From NCBI RefSeq assembly GCF_053078305.1, contig NZ_CP166879.1: DNA of 64,000 nt. One strand, 5' to 3'. This document shows positions 30,562 to 56,123 of this stretch, one piece after another (positions within the stretch are counted from its first letter, which is position 1; each line of letters begins with the position of its first letter). The notes beneath the pieces are model-generated. The model was not told where the DNA came from. It saw nothing but the letters and a program-made list of their open reading frames with translations, and ran no database searches. The position numbers were made by a program, and so were the translations under genes.

Positions 30562-31014
30562 CTACGTTTTATGCAGCCGCTCAGGGATGTATGTCACAAT
30601 TTTCTTTCGCCTGCTTAACCATCGTACTTCTCCTTCTCCCCATGGCTGAAGCTGTATGAGATAGTCAATAACTTTTCGACCAAAGCCTGGTTTACAACAG
30701 AAATCCAGAATCCAAATCCTTCCATCTTCATTCCATTCAGACGGATGCAACCTGAATTCTGGATCCCTGAGCAGGCGCGCTTCTGTATCAGCCTCAAGAT
30801 ATGCCCAGGTAATATACGCCAGTGGAAAACCTCGTGAATCAAACAGGAATTTAATCTGATTATGCTGTATCGCATATTCAGTCCAGTATTGAATGGTTAA
30901 CACCGGATACAGACTGTAATTACGATTGTAGAGCATACAACTGACCGCAAAACCGATCTGTTCATAAACAGTCCATTCATCTTTTCCTCTGATGGTTTCC
31001 CTTATATAAGACAT
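30562..31014 (-). CDS. mchD: microcin maturation protein MchD/MceI-like (HlyC-like acyltransferase family)
   Basis: 150 aa; position between mchC and mchE matches the H47 system; family assignment from recollection. Confidence 0.65.
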   Translation of the reverse strand: MSYIRETIRGKDEWTVYEQIGFAVSCMLYNRNYSLYPVLTIQYWTEYAIQHNQIKFLFDSRGFPLAYITWAYLEADTEARLLRDPEFRLHPSEWNEDGRIWILDFCCKPGFGRKVIDYLIQLQPWGEGEVRWLSRRKKIVTYIPERLHKT

Positions 31015-31039
31015 GATTACTATTTCCCTTATATATTTT

Positions 31040-32590
31040 TTACACTGTGTTTCTTATCGGTTCAAGATATCCAAATGCATCTCTGGAAAACTTAAGCATA
31101 AAATTTTTCATATCAGAAATTGCTTCTTGTAAAAAAAGGGGATCATCGCCATGATTATCCAGCAGGATGGCAATTTTTTCGCACATATTTTCTTTCCTCA
31201 GCTCTTCCCTGGGTTGCAGCCTTTTCATGGTATGATGTTCAATTTCTTTCAGGAGTAATGAGGCATTTATCTGACGTCTGGTACTGCCTTGCGTCAGCCA
31301 GTGGATGGCCTGGGAAAAACACTGTTGTGCAACGGTGAAATGAACATCATTCTTGATGCTACTATTCAGTGCCTGCTTTTGATTATGCCTATGATGGATT
31401 AGCGTCACAACCAACTTTTGCAATGGTGAACCATCCTGATTGACAATATCTTGGGCATGTGATTTCTCGCAGTATTGATTGAGTAATGCAACAAAACTGT
31501 TAACCAGTTCTTTCAATATATCAGGTATCTCTTTTTGTGTTATAAATTCTCCAGGAATACCCAACAGTTCTAGATAACAGTAATAACATGCTTCATGAAA
31601 AGTTTTCTGAAATATCTCCTCAACCTTCAAACGGGCTGCAAGAGTGAAGTCAGGGTCAAACATATATTTTCCGATATACAAGCAGAGATCAGACAGCCCT
31701 TGCATAAGTACCATCGGTTCTTTTGCCAGTTCAGCTAATCTTAGTTTATACCCAAAATCAGCTGGGGAATCTCCCGGAAACAGACAACTGAGTCCGTTAA
31801 AATCCATTAATCTGCCATCCATTGCAATATTAGAAGGAGAAGTTGTCAATCTCAGGAAACGTGTTCGACAAAATGCCATTTGCCAGGCCTCACGACGTGC
31901 CAGTTCACATAACCCCTCAATGCAATAAATCCGGGGATCAGTTCGTGCTTCAGCATCAATTTCTTCCGGTGGTACAGGTAGATATCCTGGCAGCTTGTGG
32001 ATCACAGATCTAACCCGACAGGCATCGTGAATTAACAGACTGGAATACTCCGGTTTTACTTGGAAGTAAGGTGCCCGTTCAAAATGCGCCGGACGAACAA
32101 CAGGCTCACGTACCAACAGGGCTCTTCGTGATTTCCTACCGGAGCGCTCAAATGCCTTTTCAGTATAGAGATCTGTAAGTAAAACCGCCCGAACCCGCAC
32201 AGCACTATAAGGTAATATTTGAGCCAGTACTTCTCCCCACAAAGCCTCATATATTGCATGAACAGCGCCGAGTGCACCATTAGAATGACGTTCGTCAGTA
32301 CCTTCGCCAACCAACGGATTACTTCCTATTCCTTTAACCTGGTAGTTACCATCAAACCCACAACGTGCACCACCTCCATTACGCTGAATACCACTGCCAC
32401 CATAGCGCTCTGCATGGAACACTTTGGCAGAAGCTGTACTGCCAGGATCGATAATATAACTGCAGGCATTTTGCAGCTCGTCTGGATTTCTGACATCCTC
32501 TGCACACCAGATTAATGAGGCCTTGATCTGCCTGGCAGTGAAAGGCACCAGGTTTTCATTCAGTTCAGAAAGTGAACACTGATGACTCAT
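31040..32590 (-). CDS. mchC: microcin maturation protein MchC/MceJ-like
   Basis: 516 aa; immediately downstream of mchB, as in the mchXIBCDEF arrangement. Confidence 0.7.
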   Translation of the reverse strand: MSHQCSLSELNENLVPFTARQIKASLIWCAEDVRNPDELQNACSYIIDPGSTASAKVFHAERYGGSGIQRNGGGARCGFDGNYQVKGIGSNPLVGEGTDERHSNGALGAVHAIYEALWGEVLAQILPYSAVRVRAVLLTDLYTEKAFERSGRKSRRALLVREPVVRPAHFERAPYFQVKPEYSSLLIHDACRVRSVIHKLPGYLPVPPEEIDAEARTDPRIYCIEGLCELARREAWQMAFCRTRFLRLTTSPSNIAMDGRLMDFNGLSCLFPGDSPADFGYKLRLAELAKEPMVLMQGLSDLCLYIGKYMFDPDFTLAARLKVEEIFQKTFHEACYYCYLELLGIPGEFITQKEIPDILKELVNSFVALLNQYCEKSHAQDIVNQDGSPLQKLVVTLIHHRHNQKQALNSSIKNDVHFTVAQQCFSQAIHWLTQGSTRRQINASLLLKEIEHHTMKRLQPREELRKENMCEKIAILLDNHGDDPLFLQEAISDMKNFMLKFSRDAFGYLEPIRNTV

Positions 32591-32861: not shown

Positions 32862-33089
32862 TTAGCTACCGCCACCAGCAGAAGAACTGGCACTACCACT
32901 TCCCACGGTCGAGCCAATTGCTGTTGTCAAACCGGCAGATACGGCTCCAACTACAACCCCAAGTGGACCACCAGGTATTCCGGCGAGAGCTCCAACAATA
33001 GCTGCAGCACCTGCAGCATTAGCTGAAGTAGCTGGCGCACCTCCCGCCCCGGAAATATATCTTAACTGTGATTCTGTTATTTCTCGCAT
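32862..33089 (-). CDS. mchB: microcin H47 precursor
   Basis: 75 aa; leader MREITESQLRYISGAG; Gly/Ala-rich core; C-terminal SASSSAGGGS; matches my recollection of MchB. Confidence 0.85.
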   Translation of the reverse strand: MREITESQLRYISGAGGAPATSANAAGAAAIVGALAGIPGGPLGVVVGAVSAGLTTAIGSTVGSGSASSSAGGGS

Positions 33090-33116
33090 ATAAACTGCAT
33101 ATAAACTCCATCATAT

Positions 33117-33326
33117 TTAACTTCCGTTTTTCCAGCCTGACCAGACCAGAATCCTTCGAATCCCATGAATCAGCTCAATAAAACCAAGAAATATTATAAA
33201 GCTTAGAAAAACGTCAACATAAGAATTCCCTTCGCCAACAATCCGAAGGGATGAAAGTGAAACCAATAAGATAGTAATAGGTAAACTGAATATAGCCGTC
33301 AATTGGGACAGTTTTTTATAACTCAT
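33117..33326 (-). CDS. mchI: microcin H47 immunity protein
   Basis: 69 aa two-helix membrane peptide (MSYKKLSQLTAIFSLPITILLV...) directly upstream of mchB. Confidence 0.8.
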   Translation of the reverse strand: MSYKKLSQLTAIFSLPITILLVSLSSLRIVGEGNSYVDVFLSFIIFLGFIELIHGIRRILVWSGWKNGS

Positions 33327-33738
33327 TAATCCCTACCTGTTGCTTTATTTTCATTATGAAAAGTTACCAAATCTTAGCACCTCAGTCAGGAGAGTCAGGT
33401 CATCGATAAAGAATATTCCAGTAGAGTGGCGCTCATGATCAAAGATAACAGCAAAGTTGATGACAGCGCTGACCGACTGTCATTTACAGAAACCCTGTTT
33501 GTAGCACATTCCATCTTACCTGACCTCACCCAGACAAAGACAAAAGAGAATGATTGTTATTTACTTTTCAAAAAAAAGTGTCATATTGTCCATATAAAGT
33601 CAAGAGGTATTTTACGTTATGTCACTGATGCAATTGTTAGTCAGGATCTCATGGTTGTCGCTCATGTATAACCTGAGACTTGAACGCACACTAATAGCAC
33701 TGACGGTCATACATCGGGAAATGTGAGGAGGCATAAGA

Positions 33739-33984
33739 ATGAATTGTGATAATAATCACAGAAATGAAGAATTCATTGTTACCTTTGATAAAGGCAACAA
33801 GCAAGACAATTCAAGACGAAAACACGATAATTTTCCTATAGAGGTAGAATCCTCCGTAGAGCAGGAGACACACTGTATCACAAATAATAAGTCGGCTTCC
33901 GGTATAGTAACACATGACTATGATGCCGATTATATTTGTGGTTGTGGTGAAATTATGTGTCCTGGTTGCGGTCATGACCTATAA
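33739..33984 (+). CDS. small cysteine-rich protein, unknown function
   Basis: 81 aa; strong GAGGAGG site 8 nt upstream; C-terminal CGCGEIMCPGCGHDL cluster; lies where mchS4 is reported in the H47 system, but identity unverified. Confidence 0.45.
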   Translation: MNCDNNHRNEEFIVTFDKGNKQDNSRRKHDNFPIEVESSVEQETHCITNNKSASGIVTHDYDADYICGCGEIMCPGCGHDL

Positions 33985-34139
33985 CAAACATTTTTGCAAA
34001 CTGATACCTGATCAGGTACAAGCCTGTTGATTATTATGCTGAATATTTCATGTTATAAAACCATCGATATAAACATTAACAAGAAAAAACATATATTGTT
34101 TATCTGAACATTTATCGATGGAAAACCAAAGGGGAAAGT

Positions 34140-34574
34140 ATGTATCTTACGAAAAAGATTATAATAAGTATGATGTTTATATTACCATCTGCTGCATTTT
34201 CATCAGATCCACCTCCCCTTCAACAATCGTTAGAAAAAACAACCTATTTTTCTATAGGTATGAATGGGTTTATAGGCTATCAGAGCGAAGGGGAAAAATT
34301 ATACACACACATTCTTACATTAGATAATCCCGAAGAGATATTTAAAAATATAATAAAAAATAGAAAGTCAACTAAGGAGTCTAAAATTTATGCTGCTTGT
34401 GGGCTATATTATTTAAACGTAGAAAATATAGAGTCATTGTTTAATGAAAATGATAAACAAGAATATGTGTCTGTCTTAAGAGGGGATATTTTAACAAAAA
34501 TAAAACTGAATGATATTCTGAATTCTGTGATAATAAATGGTTGCAACACCAAATTAATATCTGAACATAAATGA
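34140..34574 (+). CDS. secreted/membrane-anchored protein, putative immunity protein for the adjacent precursor (MchS3-like)
   Basis: 144 aa with N-terminal signal/anchor; AAAGGGGAAAG upstream; 16 nt before the precursor gene; size and position fit MchS3. Confidence 0.5.
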   Translation: MYLTKKIIISMMFILPSAAFSSDPPPLQQSLEKTTYFSIGMNGFIGYQSEGEKLYTHILTLDNPEEIFKNIIKNRKSTKESKIYAACGLYYLNVENIESLFNENDKQEYVSVLRGDILTKIKLNDILNSVIINGCNTKLISEHK

Positions 34575-34590
34575 GCAGGAGGTCTTTAAA

Positions 34591-34824
34591 ATGAGAGAAA
34601 TATCAGATCACATGCTTGATTTCGTGAAAGGAGGGATGAATCTTAATGGATTACCTAGTTCTACTAATGTAATAGATCTACGAGGAAAAGATATGGGAAC
34701 ATATATTGATGCTAATGGAGCATGCTGGGCTCCGGGTACTCCATCCATCATCATGTATCCGGGGGGAAGTGGACCTTCTTATAGTATGAGTAGTTCCACA
34801 TCCAGTGCAAACAGCGGCAGTTAA
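34591..34824 (+). CDS. class IIb microcin precursor, probably microcin I47 (MchS2-like)
   Basis: 77 aa; leader MREISDHMLDFVKGG; C-terminal SSSTSSANSGS; AGGAGG upstream; terminator hairpin follows. Identity with I47 is from recollection only. Confidence 0.65.
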   Translation: MREISDHMLDFVKGGMNLNGLPSSTNVIDLRGKDMGTYIDANGACWAPGTPSIIMYPGGSGPSYSMSSSTSSANSGS

Positions 34825-34828
34825 ATAA

Positions 34829-34860
34829 ATACCCTCCGGCATGGCCGGAGGGTATTTATG
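34829..34860 (+). terminator. rho-independent terminator after the precursor gene
   Basis: Inverted repeat ACCCTCCGGC / GCCGGAGGGT with a 3-nt loop, followed by ATTTAT. Confidence 0.5.
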
Positions 34861-35112
34861 ATGTGCCTGTAAGACTCTACTTCTGTCGTCTCTTTACAAA
34901 GGCATATGATCTGTCATTTTGTACCAGACATCTTAACGAGAGCCTTTTCATATATTACTTACATACGTGAAATCTACAGTATAAAGCAAAAATTTTATTA
35001 AACCTGTTTTATATTTATCATCAATACAACAGATTTAATTCCGGAAAGTCACTCATCATCCCTTGAATGAACGTCATTTGATGTATTATTCTTACACTTG
35101 GATTAATTTAAG

Positions 35113-36387
35113 ATGATACCTATGAAAAACTATCTTTTCCAGACACCCGAAGATATTTGTGTACAGTTAAAAAAAATGACACATCCTGTCACAATAAGAA
35201 CAACAGATATTGCTAATTTCTGGCACTATCTTGAGTCAGCAACACTTCCAGTGATCACAAAAAGCACCACTACAGAAAATCGGGAGGTTACATTTCTGTG
35301 GCGCTCAGAGAAAGCACTGCAAGGCGTATATCTTCGCCTGAATCGTGTAACAGATAAAAAAGACGTCAAAAAAGGACTAATGACTCATATCCCTTCGACA
35401 GATATCTGGATGCTGACACTGGTGTTACCAGCTTCATATCGGGGCTCATACTCATTTATAGAAATTCCCACAGATATGACACAAAAAGACATATTTCAAC
35501 TAGGAAGTCGCTTCTCTCCATTACCCGGTAAATCTGATCCATTTAACAAAACAGCAGAAATAAATATACGAGGATTCGGAGAATCAGTCCTTTCTCTTGA
35601 TATGGCTCCTGAACAAAAGGAATGGGATGATACTTCCCATAAATGTACAGGTATTCTTTCAACATTACATTCCTTTGTTGCAGGATATCAACGCCGGATT
35701 CGTTTATATTTTCCCCTGAATCCAACATCAGTACCTCTTGGATTACTTGTGTTACCTGATGCTGAAACATGGTTTGACCGGATAGATATTACCCGGGCAT
35801 TAGATATGGCCATCACCACTGGTCGTATCACGCCAATGGCAATTATGGGGATAGACAATATTAATGAATCTGATCGTATGAATATACTGGGAGGCAATAA
35901 AGAACTCATCTTTGATATAGCGGAAAATCTGATACCCCAGTTATACAGAGACTATCCGGATATCGTATGGGCTGGTCGCTCTAATACTGTACTGGCCGGG
36001 CAGAGCCTCGGTGGAGTGACAGCACTGATGGCAGCTATATATGCGTCGACAACATTTGGTACAATCATTAGTCACTCACCTTCAATGTGGTGGAACCCTG
36101 ACCAGGGCAGCCCGATCTTGTTTACTGAGAATAATACCTCCTGGGTAAGTGAGCAGATACTTTCAGCGCCTCCGAAAGATGTAAATATTCGACTTGGAGT
36201 CGGTTCTTTAGAAGGTACAACCGTCTCACATGTTCAGCGATTGCATCATTCGTTAATCGCAGCTGGTTTGGAAAGTAACCTCACTGTCTATACCGGTGGT
36301 CACGATTATGCTTGGTGGCGCGGAGCAATTATTGATGAATTAGCAAATTATAATTGCAGGAAGGTATCAAATAATAACTCTGTGTAA
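35113..36387 (+). CDS. mchS1: enterobactin/salmochelin esterase family protein (IroD/Fes-like; MchS1/McmK)
   Basis: 424 aa; serine hydrolase motif GQSLGG; role in processing the siderophore moiety of class IIb microcins is established for this family. Confidence 0.8.
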   Translation: MIPMKNYLFQTPEDICVQLKKMTHPVTIRTTDIANFWHYLESATLPVITKSTTTENREVTFLWRSEKALQGVYLRLNRVTDKKDVKKGLMTHIPSTDIWMLTLVLPASYRGSYSFIEIPTDMTQKDIFQLGSRFSPLPGKSDPFNKTAEINIRGFGESVLSLDMAPEQKEWDDTSHKCTGILSTLHSFVAGYQRRIRLYFPLNPTSVPLGLLVLPDAETWFDRIDITRALDMAITTGRITPMAIMGIDNINESDRMNILGGNKELIFDIAENLIPQLYRDYPDIVWAGRSNTVLAGQSLGGVTALMAAIYASTTFGTIISHSPSMWWNPDQGSPILFTENNTSWVSEQILSAPPKDVNIRLGVGSLEGTTVSHVQRLHHSLIAAGLESNLTVYTGGHDYAWWRGAIIDELANYNCRKVSNNNSV

Positions 36388-36456
36388 AATATCTTTTTAT
36401 CGTCCGATAACTCTTTCTGCAATATTATTATGGGAGACTATCTCATTTATTTAGTG

Positions 36457-36492
36457 ATGTCCTTCATTTATGTGATGAAGGACATTATATTA
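36457..36492. terminator. hairpin between convergent mchS1 and mchA
   Basis: Inverted repeat ATGTCCTTCAT / ATGAAGGACAT with a 7-nt loop. Confidence 0.35.
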
Positions 36493-36528
36493 CTCATAAC
36501 ATTTCTCGTTGAAAATTTCAGCAATACG

Positions 36529-37653
36529 CTACAATTGTTTCCCGTTGTTTTTTAATTTTCTCATCAAAACCTCTGCAATCTCTGCAGGACTGGGTTGTTC
36601 AGCCATTTCAGCGGCTACCTGATCTGAACAGAAGCGTAGTGAATCATCATAAAGCAGGCGATTTACCAAATCACTAGTCAGTCCATGCTTGTCCGGAATA
36701 ATCCCACACCCACGCTTCGCAACAATTTCTGCATTAACAGAGCGATCTGCACCTTCGCCAAACACAATCTGTGGTATTCCACTATACAGCGCTGTCAGGG
36801 TATTACCTGCGCCACCGTGATGAATAAATCCATCAGCTCCATTAAGGAATACACCCATAGGTATCCAGTCAACCAGACGTACATTTGATGGTAGTTTTCG
36901 TAAACCAGTACGAGCATTTATTGCAAGTTGCAAAATGATATCAGCATCAACTTCATTTGCAGAATCCATAACCCATGAAATCAGCTCCAGACCATCAACC
37001 ATTGGTTTTACAGTGCCAAGGCTGATAAGTAAACGTTTCCGATCAGAATCCCTGTCCCACCATGTTTCCTTTACAGCACCTCCGTTATAAGGAATATATC
37101 TCATTGAGATAACCGGTTCTCCAGCATTTTTAAGAATGCTCATACTTGGGGGAGCAACATCAATCCATGCTAAATCACATAGTGGACCGCTGACTCCATG
37201 CCGCCTGTAAGCATTGCTTAAAGAACGGTTTAACATCTGAATATGGGCAGATGTATGCGCGAATCCAACAGCCAGCATCACTGAAGGAATTCTATATTTA
37301 GCAGCAACCAATGGGCCTGCCGGACCAAGAGGGGGATAGACTATTAAATCTGGCCTCCATTTTCCTGCAAAATTGATGAGGTTATCTGCCATTTCATCGC
37401 TAAAAAAAGAGAAATGACCAATAATATTACTTTTTTTCCTCAACTCTTCCTGATGGCGATATCCAGCCTCTGAATCTAAACCTGGAACTGCATCAAAAAC
37501 AACCAGTCCAGCTTCTGCTGCTTTATTCGCGAATTTGCCAGCGCTACTAATTACTACATCATGTCCAATTACACGAAAGGCCTGAGCCAGAGAAATCAAT
37601 GGGTATAACAAACCGTACAGCGGTGGGCCAATAAAAAGAATACGTTTTCGCAT
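36529..37653 (-). CDS. mchA: IroB-like glycosyltransferase (MchA/McmL)
   Basis: 374 aa GT-B type glycosyltransferase with C-terminal HHGGAGNT motif; convergent with the esterase gene. Confidence 0.8.
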   Translation of the reverse strand: MRKRILFIGPPLYGLLYPLISLAQAFRVIGHDVVISSAGKFANKAAEAGLVVFDAVPGLDSEAGYRHQEELRKKSNIIGHFSFFSDEMADNLINFAGKWRPDLIVYPPLGPAGPLVAAKYRIPSVMLAVGFAHTSAHIQMLNRSLSNAYRRHGVSGPLCDLAWIDVAPPSMSILKNAGEPVISMRYIPYNGGAVKETWWDRDSDRKRLLISLGTVKPMVDGLELISWVMDSANEVDADIILQLAINARTGLRKLPSNVRLVDWIPMGVFLNGADGFIHHGGAGNTLTALYSGIPQIVFGEGADRSVNAEIVAKRGCGIIPDKHGLTSDLVNRLLYDDSLRFCSDQVAAEMAEQPSPAEIAEVLMRKLKNNGKQL

Positions 37654-38381
37654 TAAAAAAGTCCGTCTTCTGCTTACCTGTTTATTTTTCTATCTCTAAG
37701 AAAACATAATTAATATTATTTTTATGTGAGCTTATGCACAAAAATAACCAAGTATATTATCTTCTGGTAGAGATACAGGATACAGTTTGTAGGAGCTTTC
37801 TTTTTTGAACAATGATTTGCAGGACAGTTATGCTAAACTAGCGGAATCAGTATCACAACAATAAATGACTGTTCATACCTGAAATTTGAATTAACAGGCA
37901 TCATGAATGTCAATAGTCTAAGCGGTGACTACTTATATCGCTTGCATAAATACTAAACACTGACTAGAAAAGTATTGGATAACCCCGTCACTAAAAGTAA
38001 CGCTTCGGTTATTTGCTCGGAATGTATTAACGCCAAGATTGTTAGCCGTTACGCCTTATATCACTGGCGCTGACAAATGTTTCTTTTCTAATTTACTGAA
38101 CCGGCGCAGACACGCAGGAAAGCACGCCGGCACCGGTGTAATGCCAGTTCTAATCAATAAGAATGGAATGACGAATCAGTCAGGAAGGGATAACAACCCG
38201 CTGCTGAACGGAAGGTATCAGCAGGAAGATGAACGGGAATATCGCCAGCACCAAGGGCAGGGCCGGGTTCCACAATACCAGCGCTGGCATTTTGCACATT
38301 GCCAGCGTACCGGCATTACAACACGTTTCATGCTGCTGCCCCCAGGATTCCTCGATTCGTTGCTACATCCACTGCTCTACT

Positions 38382-44589: not shown

Positions 44590-46143
44590 TTACTTCGCTC
44601 TCAGCTTATTGTAGTGATAACCCGAGGTAAAAATACCAGAGACATCAGACAACTTTAAACTGGCTATCTGGGGAAGCAGAACATACATGGTTTTTCCTTC
44701 CGGCACGACAGAAAGCCTGAACTGAGATTCAAGAATGTTCAGCAATGCGTTCAGTTTTTTCCTGTTTCTGAACCGGCCCGGGCCACACTGGAGAATATAA
44801 TTTTTCCTGACACGGGGCGGGCATTCTCCGCGGCACTCCTCAATGAGCCAGTCGAACAGCTCCTCGGCGTCCTTCTGCTGCAGTTCAGATTCATTAGGTA
44901 ACGCAAATAATTTTTTATATTCATCTGTGTACCACGAACTTATTACGACAGCAGACGTCATGATATCGGCAGAGATTTTCCCTTCACCATAGCTGAAATA
45001 CTGAAATAACGCTGCAATTCTTGCAATGTTTTCTGTTTTTTTTGAAACATGTCCCCGAAACGGGCTTAAGGGTCCGGAAGGGGATAAATCCTGCTCCAGA
45101 ACATTATAGTGCTCAATAAATATTTTTTGCGCTTCAGGCGAAAAATGCAGACAATACCGTTCATCCTCACTGGATTTTTCAATACTGCCTCTGGCCAGTT
45201 CCATTAATCGTTCATGAAATGCCGTTAATGATCCTCCCGGAATCACAGCTCCATTAATAAAGCGTTTCCCCTGCGTGGTTGCAGGTTTACTGATAAGACA
45301 ACGGGCAAGAAAACCACTGTCCCTGGCAACAGAACCTTTTCGCTCCATATATCGGTCAAAAAGACCGGGTTGCACCATGAGGGATAACGTCATTCTGGCA
45401 TTTTCAATCATCTGTTCGGGTTCATTCTTTCTGTCCACAGACAATACAGAGCCATCCCACATTTTGTTAATAAAAGGCAACTCAGACAGGGTATATCCAT
45501 CAAATATAATACCGGCTTCATCTGACATAATACCCACTGAACGCCATTTACCACAAAGCTGATTCTTAATTGCCGCAGTCGTGGCATCATTAAAAATGAA
45601 TTTATACCTCACAGGTTCTTCCGCACTGTTTTTCTGAAGTACTTCCAGTTGTCTGAGGGTTTCTGACTCATCCGCGCCTTTGCGGAGTTCTTTATTCAGT
45701 TTTGACAACAATGCTTTTTTCTGAGCCTTTAAAAGCTCTTCCTTGTTTTTCCAGACAGCCAGTTCACTTTTGTATCTGGAATATAACTGCATCTCCTGCT
45801 GGTACAGGGGCTTCATTAATAATTTGTCCACTGCGGTTTTTCGTTCTCCGGACTCGGCAAGCGTCAGGAAAAAAAGAGAGACCGGCCCCCGCAGTGTATT
45901 CAGTCTGCAGACATCAATCAGATTCTGGCAGACAAGTGAAACAGCGCCCAGGGCAGACGCTGCCACAAGCCCAAGGGGAGCCTGCGTAATTTGCTGAGCT
46001 TCAATAACGGCATCACGAATGAGTGGAGGCAGCGAACTCAGGGGAAACTCATCACAAGGCTGACCGAATGACATAGTAACCTCACTACACACAGATATAA
46101 AAGTACTGCAATTCTGGCTATTAATAGCAAAAATAGCAGTCAA
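44590..46143 (-). CDS. hypothetical protein (possibly YfjI-like island protein)
   Basis: 517 aa ORF (494 aa if started at the internal MSFGQP); convergent with the preceding gene; family unverified. Confidence 0.5.
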   Translation of the reverse strand: MTAIFAINSQNCSTFISVCSEVTMSFGQPCDEFPLSSLPPLIRDAVIEAQQITQAPLGLVAASALGAVSLVCQNLIDVCRLNTLRGPVSLFFLTLAESGERKTAVDKLLMKPLYQQEMQLYSRYKSELAVWKNKEELLKAQKKALLSKLNKELRKGADESETLRQLEVLQKNSAEEPVRYKFIFNDATTAAIKNQLCGKWRSVGIMSDEAGIIFDGYTLSELPFINKMWDGSVLSVDRKNEPEQMIENARMTLSLMVQPGLFDRYMERKGSVARDSGFLARCLISKPATTQGKRFINGAVIPGGSLTAFHERLMELARGSIEKSSEDERYCLHFSPEAQKIFIEHYNVLEQDLSPSGPLSPFRGHVSKKTENIARIAALFQYFSYGEGKISADIMTSAVVISSWYTDEYKKLFALPNESELQQKDAEELFDWLIEECRGECPPRVRKNYILQCGPGRFRNRKKLNALLNILESQFRLSVVPEGKTMYVLLPQIASLKLSDVSGIFTSGYHYNKLRAK

Positions 46144-47303
46144 ATCAATATGAGGTAAAAATTTTTGTTGCTTTAATGGTTAAATAATAACCACAGTGTG
46201 TTTTGCTGCTGAAGAAAGACAAAATGAATCTGTGTGTCCCCTCCTTCCCTTCAGAGCACATCCACTATTCAAATTTTACACAACCACGTACGAACAAAAA
46301 GCATCATCCCGGGTATTGCAGATACCGGTTTCCTGCCGGGAAGAATCATAAACAGAACACCGGGAATAACGCCTTCAGGAATCCCCCCCTCCTGAAGAAG
46401 AATAAAATAAAGAAGACTACAGTTCCTGCACTGAATGCTGAGTACAATATTCTATGGACAGGATGACATATTTATAAATAACAAAAACCATTTAATACTG
46501 ATACATCAATAAAATACTTCCTCCCTGCTGACGCAGATAAAATGCACCATTTTTTCTTCAAATACTTCTGTATAATCGCCAGCCAATGATGAGAATGGAT
46601 TAAAATAACACTTCTTCGACAAACACAAAAACAGCCTTCATTTTACATCATCATCCAGTTTCAGTTAACCCCGGACGAGCGACAGCGTTTCAGTACAGGA
46701 ATTAAAAGCCAGCTTTTGCTCAGTAAAAACACACTCAACTAATAATATCTCAGCAGATATTATCCTGACCAGGACACCTCACATTACTGAATTCTCTTCC
46801 GACAGTATCACTGCACAAATAAAAAAGAACTGGATAAATATTCAGACCGGAAGAATGGTGTCACAAAAGCATTTAATCATTACGCATGACCAGGAAGGGA
46901 AACACTTAACCACATGGTATCAACAGATATCATTACGTGTGCACTCTTATAAAAAACACACAGAAGAAGTAAGATAATTATAAACGTAAATTTAATATCT
47001 CCCACTGACATCTCCCCCACAATACACTGAAAAATACTCACAGCAGTAAACACAGACACACCTGATAATCATGCAGCCGATAAATATTTTCCCCTTTACG
47101 GAGAAATCAGCCTGCTGTTTAACAATAACGGCGTATTTTCATGGAAGGAGATCACCCAGTAACGGATAAGTCCTGATCTCCTTCATGTTAATACGCAACA
47201 ATCCCATCGATTCAAAACAATTTCAGACAGATATTATCTCCGTGAATCCCCCGCCACCTTTCCGGTGCGCGGGGTTTTGTCTTTTTTCACCGGGAATACA
47301 TGT

Positions 47304-48176
47304 ATGAATCCGTCTGATGCCATTGAGGCAATTGAAAAACCGCTCTCCTCCCTGCCTTACTCGCTTTCCCGTCACATCCTGGAACATCTGCGCAAACTCA
47401 CCCGTCACGAACCAGTGATTGGCATTATGGGTAAAAGCGGGGCCGGTAAATCCTCACTCTGTAATGCACTGTTTCAGGGGGAGGTCACCCCGGTCAGTGA
47501 TGTTCACACCGGCACCCGGGAAGTACGGCGCTTCCGTCTGAGTGGCCACGGTCACAGCATGGTTATCACTGACCTGCCCGGGGTGGGCGAGAGCCGGGAC
47601 AGGGATGCAGAGTATGAGGCCCTGTACCGTGACATTCTGCCTGAACTGGACCTGGTACTGTGGCTGATTAAAGCCGATGACCGTGCCCTGTCTGTGGATG
47701 AGTATTTCTGGCGACACATCCTGCACCGGGGACATCAGCGGGTACTGTTTGTGGTGACGCAGGCCGACAAAACGGAGCCCTGCCATGAATGGGATATGGC
47801 CGGTATTCAGCCTTCTCCTGCACAGGCACAGAATATTCGCGAAAAAACGGAGGCGGTATTCCGTCTGTTCCGGCCCGTACATCCGGTTGTGGCCGTATCG
47901 GCCCGCACCGGCTGGGAACTGGATACGCTGGTCAGTGCGCTCATGACAGCGCTTCCCGACCATGCCGCCAGTCCCCTGATGACCCGACTGCAGGACGAGC
48001 TGCGCACGGAATCTGTCCGGTCTCAGGCCCGTGAACAGTTTACCGGTGCGGTGGACCGGATATTTGACACGGCGGAGAGCGTCTGTATTGCCTCTGTTGC
48101 ACGCACGGTTCTGCGTGCCGTCCGTGACTCGGTGGTCTCTGTTGCCCGCGCTGTATGGAACTGGATTTTCTTCTGA
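47304..48176 (+). CDS. yeeP: YeeP/YkfA-family GTPase
   Basis: P-loop GKSGAGKSS and DxxG-type motif (DLPGVGE); track start is GTG, ATG at 47304 preferred; gene directly upstream of flu as in CP4-44. Confidence 0.7.
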   Translation: MNPSDAIEAIEKPLSSLPYSLSRHILEHLRKLTRHEPVIGIMGKSGAGKSSLCNALFQGEVTPVSDVHTGTREVRRFRLSGHGHSMVITDLPGVGESRDRDAEYEALYRDILPELDLVLWLIKADDRALSVDEYFWRHILHRGHQRVLFVVTQADKTEPCHEWDMAGIQPSPAQAQNIREKTEAVFRLFRPVHPVVAVSARTGWELDTLVSALMTALPDHAASPLMTRLQDELRTESVRSQAREQFTGAVDRIFDTAESVCIASVARTVLRAVRDSVVSVARAVWNWIFF

Positions 48177-48289
48177 ACACTCTGCCAGGGGAAATGCCTG
48201 ATTACATTGCGTTAACCAACTGAAAACATGACACAAACCCCTCATCCCCCTCCTGTTTCTCTTGCGTGACCGCTCTGCTGTCAATAGAA

Positions 48290-48335
48290 TAAAACGATCG
48301 ATAAAACAGGTATCGATCGTTACTATCGATCGTTT
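48290..48335. promoter_or_regulatory. antigen 43 phase-variation switch region (three GATC sites; expected OxyR-binding region)
   Basis: GATC at 48296, 48315 and 48328 in the sequence ACGATCGATAAAACAGGTATCGATCGTTACTATCGATCG, about 220-250 bp upstream of the flu start. Confidence 0.6.
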
Positions 48336-48548
48336 ATAGTGGTTAATGGTCTGCGAAAAGGCAGCTGAATCTCTTCATCATGCAGAACGGAATTGCACAC
48401 AACGGACTGATACTTCTCTGGCGGATGAGAGAGGGGAAGCATTTATGTCCGGGAAAAACCACTTTATCTGACCATGCTGTTTTGTACCTGCCGGTATCCA
48501 CATTTGTGGGTACCGGCTTTTTTATTCACCCTCTGTAAGGAAAAGCTG

Positions 48549-51500
48549 ATGAAACGACATCTGAACACCAGCTACAGGCTGGTATGGAATCACATTACGG
48601 GCACCCTGGTGGTGGCCTCCGAACTGGCCCGCTCACGGGGAAAACGCGCCGGTGTGGCGGTTGCGCTGTCTCTTGCTGCTGTCACATCAGTCCCGGCACT
48701 GGCTGCTGACACGGTTGTACAGGCGGGAGAAACCGTGAACGACGGAACACTGACAAATCATGACAACCAGATTGTCTTCGGTACGGCCAACGGAATGACC
48801 ATCAGTACCGGGCTGGAACTGGGGCCGGACAGTGAAGAAAACACCGGTGGGCAATGGATACAGAATGGCGGGATAGCCGGAAACACCACTGTCACCACAA
48901 ATGGTCGTCAGGTCGTGCTGGAGGGGGGAACAGCCAGTGATACGGTTATTCGTGACGGCGGGGGACAGAGCCTGAACGGGCTGGCGGTGAACACCACGCT
49001 GAATAACAGAGGCGAGCAGTGGGTTCATGAGGGCGGGGTTGCCACCGGTACAATTATCAACCGCGACGGTTACCAGAGCGTTAAAAGTGGCGGGCTGGCA
49101 ACAGGAACCATCATCAACACCGGCGCAGAAGGCGGCCCGGATTCTGACAACTCGTACACGGGTCAGAAGGTCCAGGGAACAGCAGAATCCACCACCATCA
49201 ACAAAAATGGACGGCAGATTATCTTATTTTCCGGGATAGCCCGTGACACTCTCATTTACGCAGGTGGTGACCAGTCGGTACACGGAAGGGCCCTGAATAC
49301 CACACTGAATGGCGGTTACCAGTATGTGCACAAGGACGGACTTGCGCTGAACACGGTAATTAACGAGGGGGGCTGGCAGGTTGTTAAGGCAGGTGGTGCT
49401 GTCGGTAACACCACCATAAATCAGAACGGTGAACTGAGGGTACATGCCGGCGGGGAAGCCACTGCAGTCACCCAGAACACGGGCGGTGCACTGGTTACCA
49501 GTACGGCTGCAACCGTTACCGGCATAAACCGCCTTGGAGCATTCTCGGTTGTGGAGGGTAAAGCTGATAATGTCGTACTGGAAAATGGCGGACGCCTGGA
49601 TGTGCTGACCGGACACACAGCCACTAATACCCGCGTGGATGATGGCGGAACGCTGGATGTCCGCAACGGTGGTACCGCCACCACCGTATCCATGGGAAAT
49701 GGCGGTGTACTGCTGGCCGATTCCGGTGCCGCTGTCAGTGGTACACGGAGCGACGGAAAGGCATTCAGTATCGGAGGCGGTCAGGCGGATGCCCTGATGC
49801 TGGAAAAAGGCAGTTCATTCACGCTGAACGTCGGTGATACGGCCACGGATACCACGGTAAATGGCGGACTGTTCACCGCCAGGGGCGGCACACTGGCGGG
49901 CACCACCACGCTGAATAACGGCGCCATACTTACCCTTTCCGGGAAGACGGTGAACAACAATACCCTGACCATCCGTGAAGGCGATGCACTCCTGCAGGGA
50001 GGCTCTCTCACCGGTAACGGCAGCGTGGAAAAATCAGGAAGTGGCACACTCACTGTCAGCAACACCACACTCACCCAGAAAGCCGTCAACCTGAATGAAG
50101 GCACGCTGACGCTGAACGACAGTACCGTCACCACGGATGTCATTGCTCAGCGCGGTACAGCCCTGAAGCTGACCGGCAGCACTGTGCTGAACGGTGCCAT
50201 TGACCCCACGAATGTCACTCTCGCCTCCGGTGCCACCTGGAATATCCCTGATAACGCCACGGTGCAGTCGGTGGTGGATGACCTCAGCCATGCCGGACAG
50301 ATTCATTTCACCTCCACCCGCACAGGGAAGTTCGTACCGGCAACCCTGAAAGTGAAAAACCTGAACGGGCAGAATGGCACCATCAGCCTGCGTGTACGCC
50401 CGGATATGGCACAGAGCAATGCTGACAGACTGGTCATTGACGGCGGCAGGGCAACCGGAAAAACCATCCTGAACCTGGTGAACGCCGGCAACAGTGCGTC
50501 GGGGCTGGCGACCAGCGGTAAGGGTATTCAGGTGGTGGAAGCCATTAACGGTGCCACCACGGAGGAAGGGGCCTTTGTCCAGGGGAACAGGCTGCAGGCC
50601 GGGGCCTTTAACTACTCCCTCAACCGGGACAGTGATGAGAGCTGGTATCTGCGCAGTGAAAATGCTTATCGTGCAGAAGTCCCCCTGTATGCCTCCATGC
50701 TGACACAGGCAATGGACTATGACCGGATTCTGGCAGGCTCCCGCAGCCATCAGACCGGTGTAAATGGTGAAAACAACAGCGTCCGTCTCAGCATTCAGGG
50801 CGGCCATCTCGGTCACGATAACAACGGCGGTATTGTCCGTGGGGCCACGCCGGAAAGCAGCGGCAGCTATGGCTTCGTCCGTCTTGAGGGTGACCTGCTC
50901 AGAACAGAGGTCGCCGGTATGTCTCTGACGACAGGGGTGTATGGTGCTGCAGGCCATTCTTCCGTTGATGTTAAGGATGATGACAGCTCCCGTGCCGGCA
51001 CGGTCCGGGATGATGCCGGCAGCCTGGGCGGATACCTGAATCTGATACACAACGCCTCCGGACTGTGGGCTGACATTGTGGCCCAGGGAACCCGCCACAG
51101 CATGAAAGCCTCATCGGACAATCACGACTTCCGCGCACGGGGCCGGGGCTGGCTGGGCTCACTGGAAACCGGTCTGCCCTTCAGTATCACTGACAACCTG
51201 ATGCTGGAGCCACAACTGCAGTACACCTGGCAGGGACTTTCCCTGGATGACGGTAAGGACAACGCCGGTTATGTGAAGTTCGGGCATGGCAGTGCACAAC
51301 ATGTGCGTGCCGGATTTCGTCTGGGCAGCCACAACGATATGAACTTTGGTAAAGGCACCTCATCCCGTGACACCCTGCGCGGCAGTGCCAAACACAGTGT
51401 GCGTGAACTGCCGGTGAACTGGTGGGTACAGCCTTCTGTTATCCGCACCTTCAGTTCCCGGGGGGACATGAGCATGGGTACAGCCGCAGCCGGCAGTAAC

Positions 51501-51671
51501 ATGACGTTCTCACCGTCACAGAATGGTACGTCACTGGACCTGCAGGCCGGACTGGAAGCCCGTGTCCGGGAAAACATCACCCTGGGCGTTCAGGCTGGTT
51601 ATGTCCACAGCGTCAGCGGCAGCAGCGCTGAAGGCTATAACGGTCAGGCCACGCTGAATGTGACCTTCTGA
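48549..51671 (+). CDS. flu: antigen 43 self-associating autotransporter
   Basis: 1039 aa from the ATG at 48549; extended signal peptide MKRHLNTSYRLVWNHITGTL...ALAADTVV; beta-helical repeat passenger; C-terminal beta-barrel ending QATLNVTF. Confidence 0.9.
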   Translation: MKRHLNTSYRLVWNHITGTLVVASELARSRGKRAGVAVALSLAAVTSVPALAADTVVQAGETVNDGTLTNHDNQIVFGTANGMTISTGLELGPDSEENTGGQWIQNGGIAGNTTVTTNGRQVVLEGGTASDTVIRDGGGQSLNGLAVNTTLNNRGEQWVHEGGVATGTIINRDGYQSVKSGGLATGTIINTGAEGGPDSDNSYTGQKVQGTAESTTINKNGRQIILFSGIARDTLIYAGGDQSVHGRALNTTLNGGYQYVHKDGLALNTVINEGGWQVVKAGGAVGNTTINQNGELRVHAGGEATAVTQNTGGALVTSTAATVTGINRLGAFSVVEGKADNVVLENGGRLDVLTGHTATNTRVDDGGTLDVRNGGTATTVSMGNGGVLLADSGAAVSGTRSDGKAFSIGGGQADALMLEKGSSFTLNVGDTATDTTVNGGLFTARGGTLAGTTTLNNGAILTLSGKTVNNNTLTIREGDALLQGGSLTGNGSVEKSGSGTLTVSNTTLTQKAVNLNEGTLTLNDSTVTTDVIAQRGTALKLTGSTVLNGAIDPTNVTLASGATWNIPDNATVQSVVDDLSHAGQIHFTSTRTGKFVPATLKVKNLNGQNGTISLRVRPDMAQSNADRLVIDGGRATGKTILNLVNAGNSASGLATSGKGIQVVEAINGATTEEGAFVQGNRLQAGAFNYSLNRDSDESWYLRSENAYRAEVPLYASMLTQAMDYDRILAGSRSHQTGVNGENNSVRLSIQGGHLGHDNNGGIVRGATPESSGSYGFVRLEGDLLRTEVAGMSLTTGVYGAAGHSSVDVKDDDSSRAGTVRDDAGSLGGYLNLIHNASGLWADIVAQGTRHSMKASSDNHDFRARGRGWLGSLETGLPFSITDNLMLEPQLQYTWQGLSLDDGKDNAGYVKFGHGSAQHVRAGFRLGSHNDMNFGKGTSSRDTLRGSAKHSVRELPVNWWVQPSVIRTFSSRGDMSMGTAAAGSNMTFSPSQNGTSLDLQAGLEARVRENITLGVQAGYVHSVSGSSAEGYNGQATLNVTF

Positions 51672-51691
51672 CAGAACCATCGCCTCTCTGT

Positions 51692-51716
51692 GGTCCCGGT
51701 CATCATGACCGGGACC
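51692..51716 (+). terminator. GC-rich palindrome downstream of flu
   Basis: GGTCCCGGTCAT / ATGACCGGGACC near-perfect palindrome 20 nt after the flu stop; no clear T-tract, so terminator function is uncertain. Confidence 0.3.
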
Positions 51717-51785
51717 CGGACCGGCGCAACGGATATTCAACGCCACATTCGCTGGCATTAACAATAACATGATATTCATCACGGA

Positions 51786-54308
51786 GTGACTATGTTACAG
51801 ATAGTCGGCGCGCTGATCCTGCTGATCACAGGATTTGCCATTCTTCGCCTTTTGTTCAGAGCATTAATCAGCACGGCTTCTGCGCTGGCAGGGCTCATAT
51901 TGCTGTGTCTGTTCGGCCCGGCCTTACTGGCTGGCTATATCACCGAACGCATAACCCGGTTGTTCCATATTCGCTGGCTGGCAGGCGTATTTCTGACGAT
52001 TGCCGGAATGATCATCAGCTTCATGTGGGGACTTGATGGTAAACATATCGCGCTGGAGGCTCACACCTTTGACTCTGTGAAATTTATTCTGACCACTGCT
52101 CTCGCCGGTGGTCTGCTGGCTGTTCCCCTGCAGATCAAAAACATTCAGCAGAACGGGATCACACCAGAAGATATCAGCAAGGAAATTAACGGGTATTACT
52201 GCTGTTTTTATACTGCCTTTTTCCTTATGGCGTGTTCTGCATGCGCACCATTGATCGCGTTACAGTACGATATTTCACCGTCACTGATGTGGTGGGGCGG
52301 GTTGTTGTACTGGCTGGCTGCATTAGTGACGCTGCTATGGGCGGCCAGCCAGATCCAGGCGCTGAAAAAACTGACCTGTGCCATCAGCCAGACACTGGAA
52401 GAACAACCGGTGCTCAACAGTAAATCGTGGCTGACCAGTTTGCAAAACGATTACAGCCTTCCTGACTCACTGACGGAGCGCATCTGGCTGACGCTCATTT
52501 CTCAACGGATTTCCCGGGGAGAGCTGAGGGAATTTGAACTGGCAGACGGAAACTGGTTACTGAACAATGCCTGGTATGAAAGAAACATGGCAGGGTTTAA
52601 CGAACAGTTGAAAGAGAACCTGTCATTCACACCTGATGAACTGAAAACGCTCTTCCGGAACCGCCTGAATTTATCACCGGAAGCGAATGACGATTTTCTC
52701 GATCGTTGCCTGGACGGCGGTGACTGGTATCCCTTTTCAGAAGGTCGCCGTTTTGTATCATTCCATCACGTGGATGAGCTTCGTATCTGTGCCTCCTGCG
52801 GGCTGACAGAAGTACATCATGCCCCGGAAAATCATAAGCCGGATCCGGAATGGTACTGCTCCTCTCTTTGTCGCGAAACAGAAACACTGTGTCAGGAAAT
52901 TTATGAACGCCCTTACAACAGCTTTATTTCCGATGCAACGGCGAATGGTCTGATTCTCATGAAACTGCCGGAAACCTGGAGTACAAATGAGAAAATGTTT
53001 GCTTCCGGAGGGCAGGGACATGGGTTTGCCGCTGAACGGGGAAACCATATTGTCGACAGAGTCCGTCTGAAAAACGCACGGATCCTCGGTGATAATAATG
53101 CCAGAAATGGAGCAGACAGACTGGTCAGCGGAACAGAAATCCAGACGAAATATTGTTCAACTGCAGCCCGTAGCGTCGGTGCGGCATTCGACGGACAAAA
53201 CGGACAGTATCGTTACATGGGAAATAATGGCCCCATGCAACTGGAAGTCCCCCGTGATCAGTATGCCGGCGCTGTTGAAACCATGAGGAATAAGATCCGC
53301 GAAGGTAAAGTACCCGGTGTAACCGATCCCGCAGAAGCGTCCCGGCTGATTCGTCGGGGACATCTGACTTATACTCAGGCCCGTAATATCACCCGGTTCG
53401 GGACCATCGAATCGGTCACTTATGATATTGCCGAGGGGTCGGTTGTCAGTCTGGCGGCCGGAGGGATCAGTTTTGCCCTGACGGCATCGATCTTCTGGCT
53501 CAGCACCGGCGATCGCGATGCTGCCCTGCAGACAGCTGCTGTCCAGGCAGGAAAAACCTTCACCCGCACACTGGCTGTCTACGTCACAACCCAGCAACTT
53601 CACCGGCTCACTGTTGTTCAGGGTATGCTGAAGCATATTGATTTTTCGACGGCCAGCCCGACTGTCCGGCAGGCGCTTCAGAAGGGGACCGGTGCAGGAA
53701 ATATCAGTGCCCTGAACAAAGTGATGAAGGGTACGCTGGTGACATCTCTGGCACTGGTAGCTGTCACAACCGGCCCTGACATGATCAAAATGTTGCGGGG
53801 ACGGATCTCCGGTGCGCAGTTCATCAGGAATCTTGCCGTGGCATCTTCCGGTGTGGCAGGTGGTGCTGTCGGGTCAGTGGCGGGCGGGATATTGTTCAGT
53901 CCACTGGGACCATTTGGTGCACTGACAGGGCGTGTGGTTGGCGGTGTTCTGGGGGGAATGATTGCCTCCGCTGTATCAGGAAAAATTGCCGGAGCGCTGG
54001 TTGAAGAAGATCGCGTCAAAATTCTGGCAATGATTCAGGAGCAGGTGACATGGCTTGCCGGCAGTTTCCTGCTGACCGGACATGAGATTGAAAATCTGAA
54101 CGCGAATCTGGCCCGTGTTATCGATCAGAATGCTCTGGAGATCATTTTCGCCGCCGGTATACAACAACGGGCCGCGACCAATATGTTAATCAAACCACTG
54201 GTGGTCAGTATCATCAGGCAACGCCCCGTCATGGAATATGATGCATCCCATCTCGGCAATATGGTTAACCGACTGGAAGAAGCATTACCCCCGGAGTTAC
54301 CGGCATAA
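51786..54308 (+). CDS. yeeR: inner membrane protein, YeeR-like
   Basis: 840 aa with multiple N-terminal TM helices and a Gly-rich C-terminal membrane region; position after flu corresponds to yeeR of CP4-44. Confidence 0.55.
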   Translation: MTMLQIVGALILLITGFAILRLLFRALISTASALAGLILLCLFGPALLAGYITERITRLFHIRWLAGVFLTIAGMIISFMWGLDGKHIALEAHTFDSVKFILTTALAGGLLAVPLQIKNIQQNGITPEDISKEINGYYCCFYTAFFLMACSACAPLIALQYDISPSLMWWGGLLYWLAALVTLLWAASQIQALKKLTCAISQTLEEQPVLNSKSWLTSLQNDYSLPDSLTERIWLTLISQRISRGELREFELADGNWLLNNAWYERNMAGFNEQLKENLSFTPDELKTLFRNRLNLSPEANDDFLDRCLDGGDWYPFSEGRRFVSFHHVDELRICASCGLTEVHHAPENHKPDPEWYCSSLCRETETLCQEIYERPYNSFISDATANGLILMKLPETWSTNEKMFASGGQGHGFAAERGNHIVDRVRLKNARILGDNNARNGADRLVSGTEIQTKYCSTAARSVGAAFDGQNGQYRYMGNNGPMQLEVPRDQYAGAVETMRNKIREGKVPGVTDPAEASRLIRRGHLTYTQARNITRFGTIESVTYDIAEGSVVSLAAGGISFALTASIFWLSTGDRDAALQTAAVQAGKTFTRTLAVYVTTQQLHRLTVVQGMLKHIDFSTASPTVRQALQKGTGAGNISALNKVMKGTLVTSLALVAVTTGPDMIKMLRGRISGAQFIRNLAVASSGVAGGAVGSVAGGILFSPLGPFGALTGRVVGGVLGGMIASAVSGKIAGALVEEDRVKILAMIQEQVTWLAGSFLLTGHEIENLNANLARVIDQNALEIIFAAGIQQRAATNMLIKPLVVSIIRQRPVMEYDASHLGNMVNRLEEALPPELPA

Positions 54309-56069: not shown

Positions 56070-56123
56070 TTCAGCCATTACCCTGAAAACCACGCATTTA
56101 TTTGTCCTTTAAGGAGTCATTTC

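What the first reader, a model, noticed from the sequence alone, without database searches (positions are those of the whole stretch)
34140..34860. Second precursor/immunity pair, probably microcin I47 (mchS2/mchS3)
A 77-aa precursor with leader MREISDHMLDFVKGG and tail SSSTSSANSGS is preceded by a 144-aa signal-peptide protein. Sizes and placement next to the esterase gene fit what I recall of mchS3-mchS2, but I cannot confirm the sequence.
Basis: partly seen in the sequence, partly recalled or inferred. Interest (0 to 1): 0.4.

Follow-up and report, generated by a model that had tools for sequence, protein, structure and literature searches.

The report
Microcin I47 gene pair (mchS3–mchS2)
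This is the already described E. coli gene pair for the antibacterial peptide microcin I47 and its self-protection protein, present as a common natural variant inside a complete microcin island; it is ordinary.

Summary
Both ORFs exist exactly as described: 34140-34574 (+, 144 aa) and 34591-34824 (+, 77 aa), 16 nt apart, each with a Shine-Dalgarno sequence. A strong hairpin follows at 34825-34859. The 144-aa protein passes NCBIfam's MchS3 model (139 bits, cutoff 100), and its exact sequence carries the UniRef name of Q712P9 (MchS3). The published MchS2, the microcin I47 precursor (Q712Q0), was recovered by exact look-up and from a paper supplement. The window peptide is 73/77 identical to it. 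The differences are N7H and S11F in the leader and A23S and D49G in the 62-aa core. This exact allele occurs on at least 1000 public contigs and is already listed as an I47 hit in a published survey. The pair sits where mchS3-mchS2 sit in the H47/CA46-type island: mchF-E-D-C, mchB, mchI, mchX, mchS4, mchS3, mchS2, mchS1 (esterase), mchA (glycosyltransferase). All of these are intact. Side observations: RefSeq leaves mchS2 unannotated or calls it 'hypothetical'. MchS3 looks like a secreted helical protein rather than a membrane peptide. A third pair in the island matches the description of microcin Ec W.

The parts
34140..34574 (+). mchS3 (= mciI), the microcin I47 immunity gene. It encodes 144 aa with an N-terminal signal-peptide-like segment (residues 1-21) and no other hydrophobic segment.
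   Evidence: ORF. NCBIfam NF041432 MchS3, 139.3 bits against a cutoff of 100. The exact sequence is named under UniRef Q712P9_ECOLX. RefSeq annotates it as mchS3 in identical DNA. Hydropathy.
34591..34824 (+). mchS2 (= mciA), the microcin I47 precursor gene. It encodes 77 aa: a 15-aa double-glycine leader (MREISDHMLDFVKGG) and a 62-aa core ending in the serine-rich tail SSSTSSANSGS. Natural allele H7/F11/S23/G49.
   Evidence: ORF. 73/77 identical to Q712Q0. The exact allele is on at least 1000 contigs and is listed as an I47 hit in the PMC9746304 supplement.
34825..34859 (+). Perfect 16-bp stem-loop immediately after the mchS2 stop codon; probable transcription terminator of the mchS3-mchS2 unit. 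The U-tail is weak.
   Evidence: RNA fold of 34815-34875: -34.7 kcal/mol, z = -8.0 against shuffles. The consensus terminator scan did not call it because the T-run is short.
33739..33984 (+). mchS4, 81 aa, co-directional and immediately upstream of mchS3.
   Evidence: Falls in the 90% cluster that contains 'MchS4 protein Q712P8_ECOLX'.
35113..36387 (+). mchS1 (= mcmK), an enterobactin-esterase-like maturation gene, 424 aa.
   Evidence: Pfam Enterochelin_N + Esterase. NCBIfam enterochelin esterase 193 bits, below the equivalog cutoff.
36529..37653 (-). mchA (= mcmL), a glycosyltransferase that C-glucosylates enterobactin, 374 aa.
   Evidence: Pfam EryCIII-like_N and _C. The role is from the literature (PMC12999681).
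27040..32590 (-). mchF (C39 peptidase/ABC exporter), mchE (HlyD-type), mchD (HlyC-like acyltransferase family) and mchC. This is the shared maturation and export machinery, and all four ORFs are intact.
   Evidence: ORFs. Pfam Peptidase_C39 + ABC_membrane + ABC_tran, HlyD and HlyC. RefSeq names.
32862..33326 (-). mchB (microcin H47 precursor, 75 aa) and mchI (its 69-aa two-helix immunity peptide): the neighbouring first pair.
   Evidence: ORFs. RefSeq names for identical DNA. Hydropathy.

Best explanation
The two ORFs are mchS3 and mchS2 (also called mciI and mciA), the immunity gene and the structural gene of the class IIb siderophore-microcin I47. They lie in a complete chromosomal E. coli microcin island of the type that also carries microcin H47 and a pair matching the description of microcin Ec W.

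Inferred mechanism, from what is established for this family: the pair is transcribed as one unit, immunity gene first, and transcription probably ends at the hairpin at 34825-34859. The 77-aa precursor is recognised through its serine-rich C-terminus by MchC/MchD, which attach glucosylated, linearised enterobactin made by MchA and MchS1. The C39-peptidase ABC exporter MchF, with MchE and TolC, cleaves the leader after Gly14-Gly15 and secretes the 62-aa peptide-siderophore conjugate. Competing enterobacteria take it up through the catecholate receptors Cir, FepA and Fiu and are killed at a target that is still unknown. MchS3 protects the producer.

What is shown here: gene identity, allele, intactness of every island gene, and synteny. 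What is inferred from literature: modification, export, uptake and immunity. My own inference: MchS3 acts in the periplasm. It has a cleavable-looking Sec signal peptide, no other hydrophobic segment, and two conserved cysteines.
For: MchS3 HMM above its curated cutoff. The exact MchS3 sequence is named under Q712P9. MchS2 is 73/77 identical to Q712Q0 and in the same 90% cluster. The exact allele is already filed as an I47 hit in PMC9746304. The DNA is 100% identical to E. coli chromosomes in which RefSeq names mchS3, mchB, mchI and mchF around it. The gene order mchS4-mchS3-mchS2-esterase-glycosyltransferase equals the second cluster of NCTC10444. All four published class IIb criteria (PMC11634061) are met: a Ser-rich C-terminus ending in Ser, one Cys, a 15-aa leader ending in GG, and an adjacent ORF with a hydrophobic segment 16 nt away. 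The hydrophobic leader positions I4, L9 and V12 and the GG site are unchanged. F11 and G49 of this allele are also the residues in distant homologues. Experimental activity of MccI47 and the need for mciI are reported in 10.1101/2021.12.17.473159. Receptor use is tabulated in PMC10233263.
Against: Nothing contradicts the identification. Several caveats apply. The allele differs from the characterised one at two core residues, and D49G removes a negative charge, so potency or spectrum may differ. No Fur-box-like site of 13/19 or better lies in 33985-34139 upstream of mchS3, although I47 production is reported only under iron limitation (PMC3191183). Promoter-like matches are no more frequent than in shuffles. 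RefSeq does not annotate the 77-aa ORF in the identical strain. Reviews describe class IIb immunity proteins as membrane proteins with 2-3 helices (PMC7472721), which MchS3 does not resemble.
Confidence: 0.95

Rival explanations
1. The pair encodes a distinct, unassigned microcin that only resembles I47 in size and position.
For: There are four substitutions relative to Q712Q0, two of them in the mature peptide. Every database entry for the exact sequence is called 'hypothetical protein'.
Against: Full-length identity is 94.8%, and the two sequences share a 90% cluster. The immunity protein is an exact-sequence member of the Q712P9 UniRef entry. Synteny is identical. A published survey already files this allele under I47.
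Confidence: 0.02
2. The genes are I47 genes but this allele is silent or inactive: a decaying copy that is not exported or not toxic.
For: RefSeq's pipeline skips the ORF. mchS2 is the most polymorphic gene of the pair (16/234 nt against 8/435 nt compared with NCTC10444 cluster 1). Sister alleles that look defective are common: G14R in the GG cleavage site on at least 1000 contigs, and frameshifted 65-aa forms. IS insertions occur in other strains.
Against: In the window the ORF is full length, the GG site and the hydrophobic leader positions are intact, and the Ser-rich tail ends in Ser. The Shine-Dalgarno sequence is strong, and all maturation and export genes are intact. The variant residues F11 and G49 are shared with distant homologues. 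dN/dS is about 0.45, which is not neutral.
Confidence: 0.08
3. The 144-aa protein is not the immunity factor but an unrelated secreted protein that happens to sit upstream. Immunity would then come from elsewhere.
For: It is unlike other class IIb immunity peptides. Those are 69-95 aa with two or more transmembrane helices, such as MchI. It has only a signal-peptide-like segment. No Pfam family matches it, and no solved structure is informative.
Against: MchS3-like and I47-like genes stay adjacent, immunity-like gene first with a short gap (16 to 36 nt), in loci as distant as 37-57% identity that lack every other mch gene. That pattern is the signature of a toxin/immunity pair. The literature assigns immunity to mchS3/mciI (PMC6795089; preprint).
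Confidence: 0.05

Closest known systems
Microcin I47 precursor MchS2 / MciA of E. coli H47 and CA46 (UniProt Q712Q0)
   Same: Both are 77 aa with a 15-aa GG leader and a 62-aa core with one Cys. The C-terminal 28 residues, including SSSTSSANSGS, are identical. Overall identity is 73/77. Position in the island is the same.
   Different: N7H and S11F in the leader; A23S and D49G in the core. The core mass is 6232.8 Da against 6274.8 Da, and the net charge is one unit less negative.
MchS3 / MciI (UniProt Q712P9; NCBIfam NF041432)
   Same: The exact window sequence is filed under the Q712P9 UniRef entry. The HMM score is above the cutoff.
   Different: No difference detected. My reading of its topology, secreted and soluble, differs from the 'transmembrane immunity peptide' description in reviews.
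Second class IIb cluster of E. coli NCTC10444 (mcmM, Ec W pair, mchF..mchB/mchI, mciI/mciA, mcmK, mcmL; PMC12999681)
   Same: Gene content and order are the same, including the 107-aa ORF between mcmM and mchF that matches Ec W. The mchS3-mchS2 DNA is 99.8% identical.
   Different: The NCTC10444 cluster-2 mchS2 carries G14R in the GG cleavage site; the window has GG intact.
Microcin H47 pair mchI/mchB (same island)
   Same: Same class and shared maturation and export genes. The immunity gene precedes the precursor gene. The precursor has a Ser-rich tail.
   Different: The sequences are unrelated. MchI is a 69-aa peptide with two hydrophobic helices, whereas MchS3 is a 144-aa signal-peptide protein.

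Membership tests
Class IIb (siderophore) microcins, criteria of PMC11634061 | Serine-rich C-terminus ending in a serine | tested here: met
   ...SYSMSSSTSSANSGS*. The core is 21% Ser.
Class IIb (siderophore) microcins, criteria of PMC11634061 | Fewer than two cysteines | tested here: met
   One Cys, C45.
Class IIb (siderophore) microcins, criteria of PMC11634061 | Signal peptide within the first 15 residues ending in GG or GA | tested here: met
   MREISDHMLDFVKGG. The hydrophobic positions -12, -7 and -4 are I, L and V.
Class IIb (siderophore) microcins, criteria of PMC11634061 | An ORF with a predicted membrane-spanning segment within 200 bp (immunity gene) | tested here: met
   mchS3 ends 16 nt upstream. 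It has one N-terminal hydrophobic segment, which looks like a cleavable signal peptide rather than an anchor.
Class IIb (siderophore) microcins | Clustered with a glycosyltransferase, an esterase, MchC/MchD-type maturation genes and a C39-ABC exporter with an HlyD partner | tested here: met
   All are present and intact at 27040-32590 and 35113-37653.
Class IIb (siderophore) microcins | C-terminal attachment of a glucosylated enterobactin derivative; uptake through catecholate receptors | not testable with these tools
   Needs mass spectrometry and receptor mutants. Known for the reference peptide only from the literature.
Microcin I47 (MchS2, Q712Q0) | High full-length sequence identity to the published precursor | tested here: met
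   73/77 identical. BLASTP E 1e-39. Same 90% cluster.
Microcin I47 (MchS2, Q712Q0) | Preceded by mchS3, and located between mchS4 and mchS1 | tested here: met
Microcin I47 (MchS2, Q712Q0) | Antibacterial activity and specific protection by MchS3 | not testable with these tools
   Experimental. Reported for the reference allele.
MchS3 family (NCBIfam NF041432) | HMM score at or above the curated cutoff of 100 bits | tested here: met
   139.3 bits, with profile positions 1-105 of 105 covered.

The most novel reading that the evidence does not exclude
MchS3 may not be a membrane-embedded immunity peptide like those of other class II microcins. It may instead be a secreted, disulfide-containing, all-helical periplasmic protein that intercepts microcin I47 before it reaches its still unknown inner-membrane or cytoplasmic target. 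It would then belong to a broader, uncharacterised family: 96 clusters at 50% identity, with conserved motifs FSxGxxGFxG and LYAACGL and a C-terminal GC. Members of that family pair with I47-like toxins even where the toxin has no siderophore tail and no mch genes are nearby. The common H7/F11/S23/G49 allele would be the ancestral-like form, and the studied reference (D49) a derived one.
Probability: 0.4. Interest if true: 0.35.

Novelty: already known. Interest (0 to 1): 0.1.

Why it matters
It matters little for discovery. Microcin I47, its immunity gene and this island type are described, and the exact allele is already in a published survey table. It has some practical value. Standard annotation omits the microcin gene or labels it 'hypothetical', so I47 carriage is under-reported. 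The allele seen here is at least as common in public data as the reference allele used in the live-biotherapeutic work, yet differs from it by a charge change in the mature peptide. The likely periplasmic location of MchS3 is a testable lead to how I47 immunity works, and possibly to where its target lies.

Tried and rejected
1. Full-text searches for sequence fragments (MREISD, MNLNGLP, SSSTSSANSGS) gave only false matches.
2. The primary paper (Poey 2006) is not held. The supplements of PMC11195462 and PMC11634061 carry no I47 sequence. The reference sequence was finally obtained from the PMC9746304 supplement and by exact look-up.
3. Pfam gives nothing for either protein or for the MchS3 family as a whole; the only match is one noise-level Tai4 hit.
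5. The afdb50 library was unavailable.
6. The Fur-box scan found no site of 13/19 or better in the 155 nt upstream of mchS3. The only weak sites lie inside the coding sequence.
7. The promoter scan is not enriched over shuffles, and the terminator scan misses the hairpin.
8. ORFs on the opposite strand (34608..34754 and 34678..34842) were considered and dismissed. They overlap the conserved mchS2 frame and have no support.

Full report
**Observation.** The window holds an ORF at 34140..34574 (+, 144 aa) and an ORF at 34591..34824 (+, 77 aa). The 144-aa product begins MYLTKKIIISMMFILPSAAFSSDPPP, which is a positively charged N-terminus, a hydrophobic core and small residues at the likely cleavage site. 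The two ORFs are 16 nt apart. Each is preceded by a Shine-Dalgarno sequence (GGGGAAAGT-ATG and AGGAGGTCTTTAAA-ATG). Directly after the mchS2 stop codon lies a perfect 16-bp stem-loop at 34825-34859 (-34.7 kcal/mol for the 61-nt stretch, z = -8.0). The region is AT-rich: 35% G+C against 48% for the whole window.

**Identity of the 144-aa protein.** It scores 139.3 bits against NCBIfam NF041432 'MchS3 family protein', whose curated cutoff is 100 bits, and covers the whole profile. An exact-sequence look-up finds it on at least 1000 contigs under the UniRef name 'MchS3 family protein ... RepID=Q712P9_ECOLX'. RefSeq annotates the identical DNA as mchS3.

**Identity of the 77-aa peptide.** No Pfam or NCBIfam model matches it, and every database copy of the exact sequence is named 'hypothetical protein'. 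The published reference had to be recovered indirectly.
- The supplement of the cinful survey (PMC9746304) uses 'I47_tr_Q712Q0' as its verified microcin I47 and prints its alignment.
- An exact look-up of MREISDNMLDSVKGGMNLNGLPASTNVIDLRGKDMGTYIDANGACWAPDTPSIIMYPGGSGPSYSMSSSTSSANSGS returns 'MchS2 protein ... RepID=Q712Q0_ECOLX'.
- The 62-residue core of that sequence has an average mass of 6274.8 Da and 12.9% Gly. These are exactly the values (6.275 kDa, 12.9) tabulated for MccI47 in PMC10233263.

Against this reference the window peptide is 73/77 identical. The differences are N7H and S11F in the leader and A23S and D49G in the core. BLASTP aligns the part that is not low-complexity at 53/57, E 1e-39. 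Both sequences belong to one 90% cluster. The exact window allele already appears as an I47 hit in the cinful supplementary table.

**Context.** The 851 bp around the pair are 100% identical to the chromosomes of several E. coli strains. Matches occur in 293 of 5426 complete E. coli genomes, always on the chromosome. The surrounding genes in the window are:
- mchF 27040-29160 (-), mchE 29135-30409 (-), mchD 30562-31014 (-), mchC 31040-32590 (-)
- mchB 32862-33089 (-), mchI 33117-33326 (-)
- an mchX-like ORF at 33395-33529 (-)
- mchS4 33739-33984 (+; its 90% cluster contains 'MchS4 protein Q712P8')
- mchS3 and mchS2
- an enterobactin-esterase-like gene, 35113-36387 (+)
- a glycosyltransferase, 36529-37653 (-)

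These assignments rest. All of these ORFs are full length. This is the order described for the H47/CA46-type islands (PMC7472721; PMC3191183). It equals the second cluster of strain NCTC10444 (PMC12999681).

**Mechanism.** What is known about I47 comes from the literature.
- mchS2 encodes a 77-aa precursor, and mchS3 encodes its immunity function.
- Activity is seen only under iron limitation.
- The purified, enterobactin-linked peptide inhibits E. coli, Salmonella, Shigella, Klebsiella pneumoniae and others. Induced expression of leaderless mciA without mciI is lethal to the producer.
- Uptake uses Cir, FepA and Fiu, and the target is unknown.

The window has everything this pathway needs within the island. 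The ent genes and tolC lie elsewhere and could not be checked. The window peptide meets the four published recognition criteria for class IIb microcins. The leader substitutions do not touch the GG site or the hydrophobic positions I4, L9 and V12. F11 and G49 are also the residues found in distant homologues, so the reference D49 looks like the derived state. I therefore expect this allele to be functional. The D49G charge change in the core could alter potency or spectrum, and that is untested.

**Conservation of the pair.** An MchS3-like gene followed by an I47-like gene also occurs in three distant loci: Serratia (L006, 37% and 58% identity), a metagenomic enterobacterial contig (L008, 57% and 68%) and another contig (L009). 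The gap between the two genes is 16 to 36 nt. In those loci the peptides lack the Ser-rich tail. In L006 and L008 no mch genes are nearby; L009 is only about 1.1 kb, so its surroundings cannot be seen. The I47 toxin/immunity module is therefore older and wider than its siderophore-microcin form. One distant MchS3 homologue (L010) has no adjacent toxin ORF.

**Polymorphism.** Compared with NCTC10444 cluster 1, mchS2 differs at 16 of 234 nt (9 amino-acid changes). mchS3 differs at 8 of 435 nt (4 changes). dN/dS is about 0.45 for mchS2 and 0.33 for mchS3. Several alleles are each found on at least 1000 contigs (the look-up cap): the window allele, its S23G sibling, the reference, and a G14R form that destroys the GG cleavage motif. 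Frameshifted 65-aa forms and IS-interrupted copies also exist.

**Regulation remains open.** No Fur-box-like site of 13/19 or better lies between mchS4 and mchS3. The nearest better site (14/19) is at 33546-33564, just upstream of the mchX-like ORF. Promoter-like matches are not enriched over shuffles. Whether mchS4-mchS3-mchS2 form one transcript is undetermined.

**Verdict.** The pair is mchS3/mchS2 (mciI/mciA), a common natural allele of the known microcin I47 system in a known island type. Novelty: already known. Interest: low.

Noticed in passing
window 26418-26979 (+): A third precursor/immunity pair lies between the CPBP/McmM gene (25358-26044) and mchF. A small hydrophobic ORF (within 26418-26654) is followed by a 107-aa peptide (26656-26979), MRNITTDELALIHGA|GLDK...FNSSTSSSSSGS. 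It fits the published description of microcin Ec W (107 aa, GA leader, same position) in NCTC10444 (PMC12999681). The exact window allele is rare (3 contigs), while a sibling allele is on at least 1000 contigs.
   Followed up: partly
window 24309-24351 and 37983-38025 (wider: about 24250-24400 and 37925-38070): Imperfect direct repeats (84% over 43 nt) bracket the roughly 13.7-kb microcin island. They probably correspond to the attL/attR sites of the mobile 'H47 genomic island' (PMC3191183).
   Followed up: partly
window 34591-34824; NZ_CP035498.1 (L001 12542-12775); NZ_LR134092.1: RefSeq/PGAP does not annotate mchS2 in the identical strain 04-00955, where a locus-tag number is skipped, or in NCTC10444 cluster 2. 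It calls mchS2 'hypothetical protein' in cluster 1. mchS4 is likewise unannotated.
   Followed up: yes
L004 (NCTC10444 cluster 2), codon 14 of mchS2: A widespread sister allele (at least 1000 contigs) has G14R, which changes the GG leader cleavage motif to RG. It is probably not processed or exported. The window allele has GG.
   Followed up: partly
window 24680-24698: This is the best Fur-box-like site in the whole window (17/19 to GATAATGATAATCATTATC). It lies about 90 nt upstream of the 156-aa membrane-protein ORF at 24790-25260, at the left edge of the island.
   Followed up: no
window 33739-33984 (+): The 81-aa Cys-rich ORF (…DYICGCGEIMCPGCGHDL) belongs to the MchS4 cluster (Q712P8). It is followed by a small hairpin with a T-run at 34013-34036.
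   Followed up: partly
window 815-26755 and 44762-60531: The island is flanked on the left by a type VI secretion cluster (tssA-tssB, hcp, vgrG, tle1/tli1). On the right are CP4-type island genes (Ag43, CbtA/CbeA, antirestriction) and kps capsule genes. These regions are 98.6-99.8% identical to E. coli 04-00955 over most of this length, dropping to about 84-90% over the last ~2.6 kb on the right (57936-60531).
   Followed up: no
L006 5571-6222; L008 5554-6237; L009 94-797: I47-like toxin/immunity pairs without a serine-rich tail occur in Serratia and in metagenomic contigs. In L006 and L008 no mch genes are nearby (L009 is too short to tell). In Serratia the pair sits next to an MntR-like regulator and an Nramp transporter gene.
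   Followed up: partly
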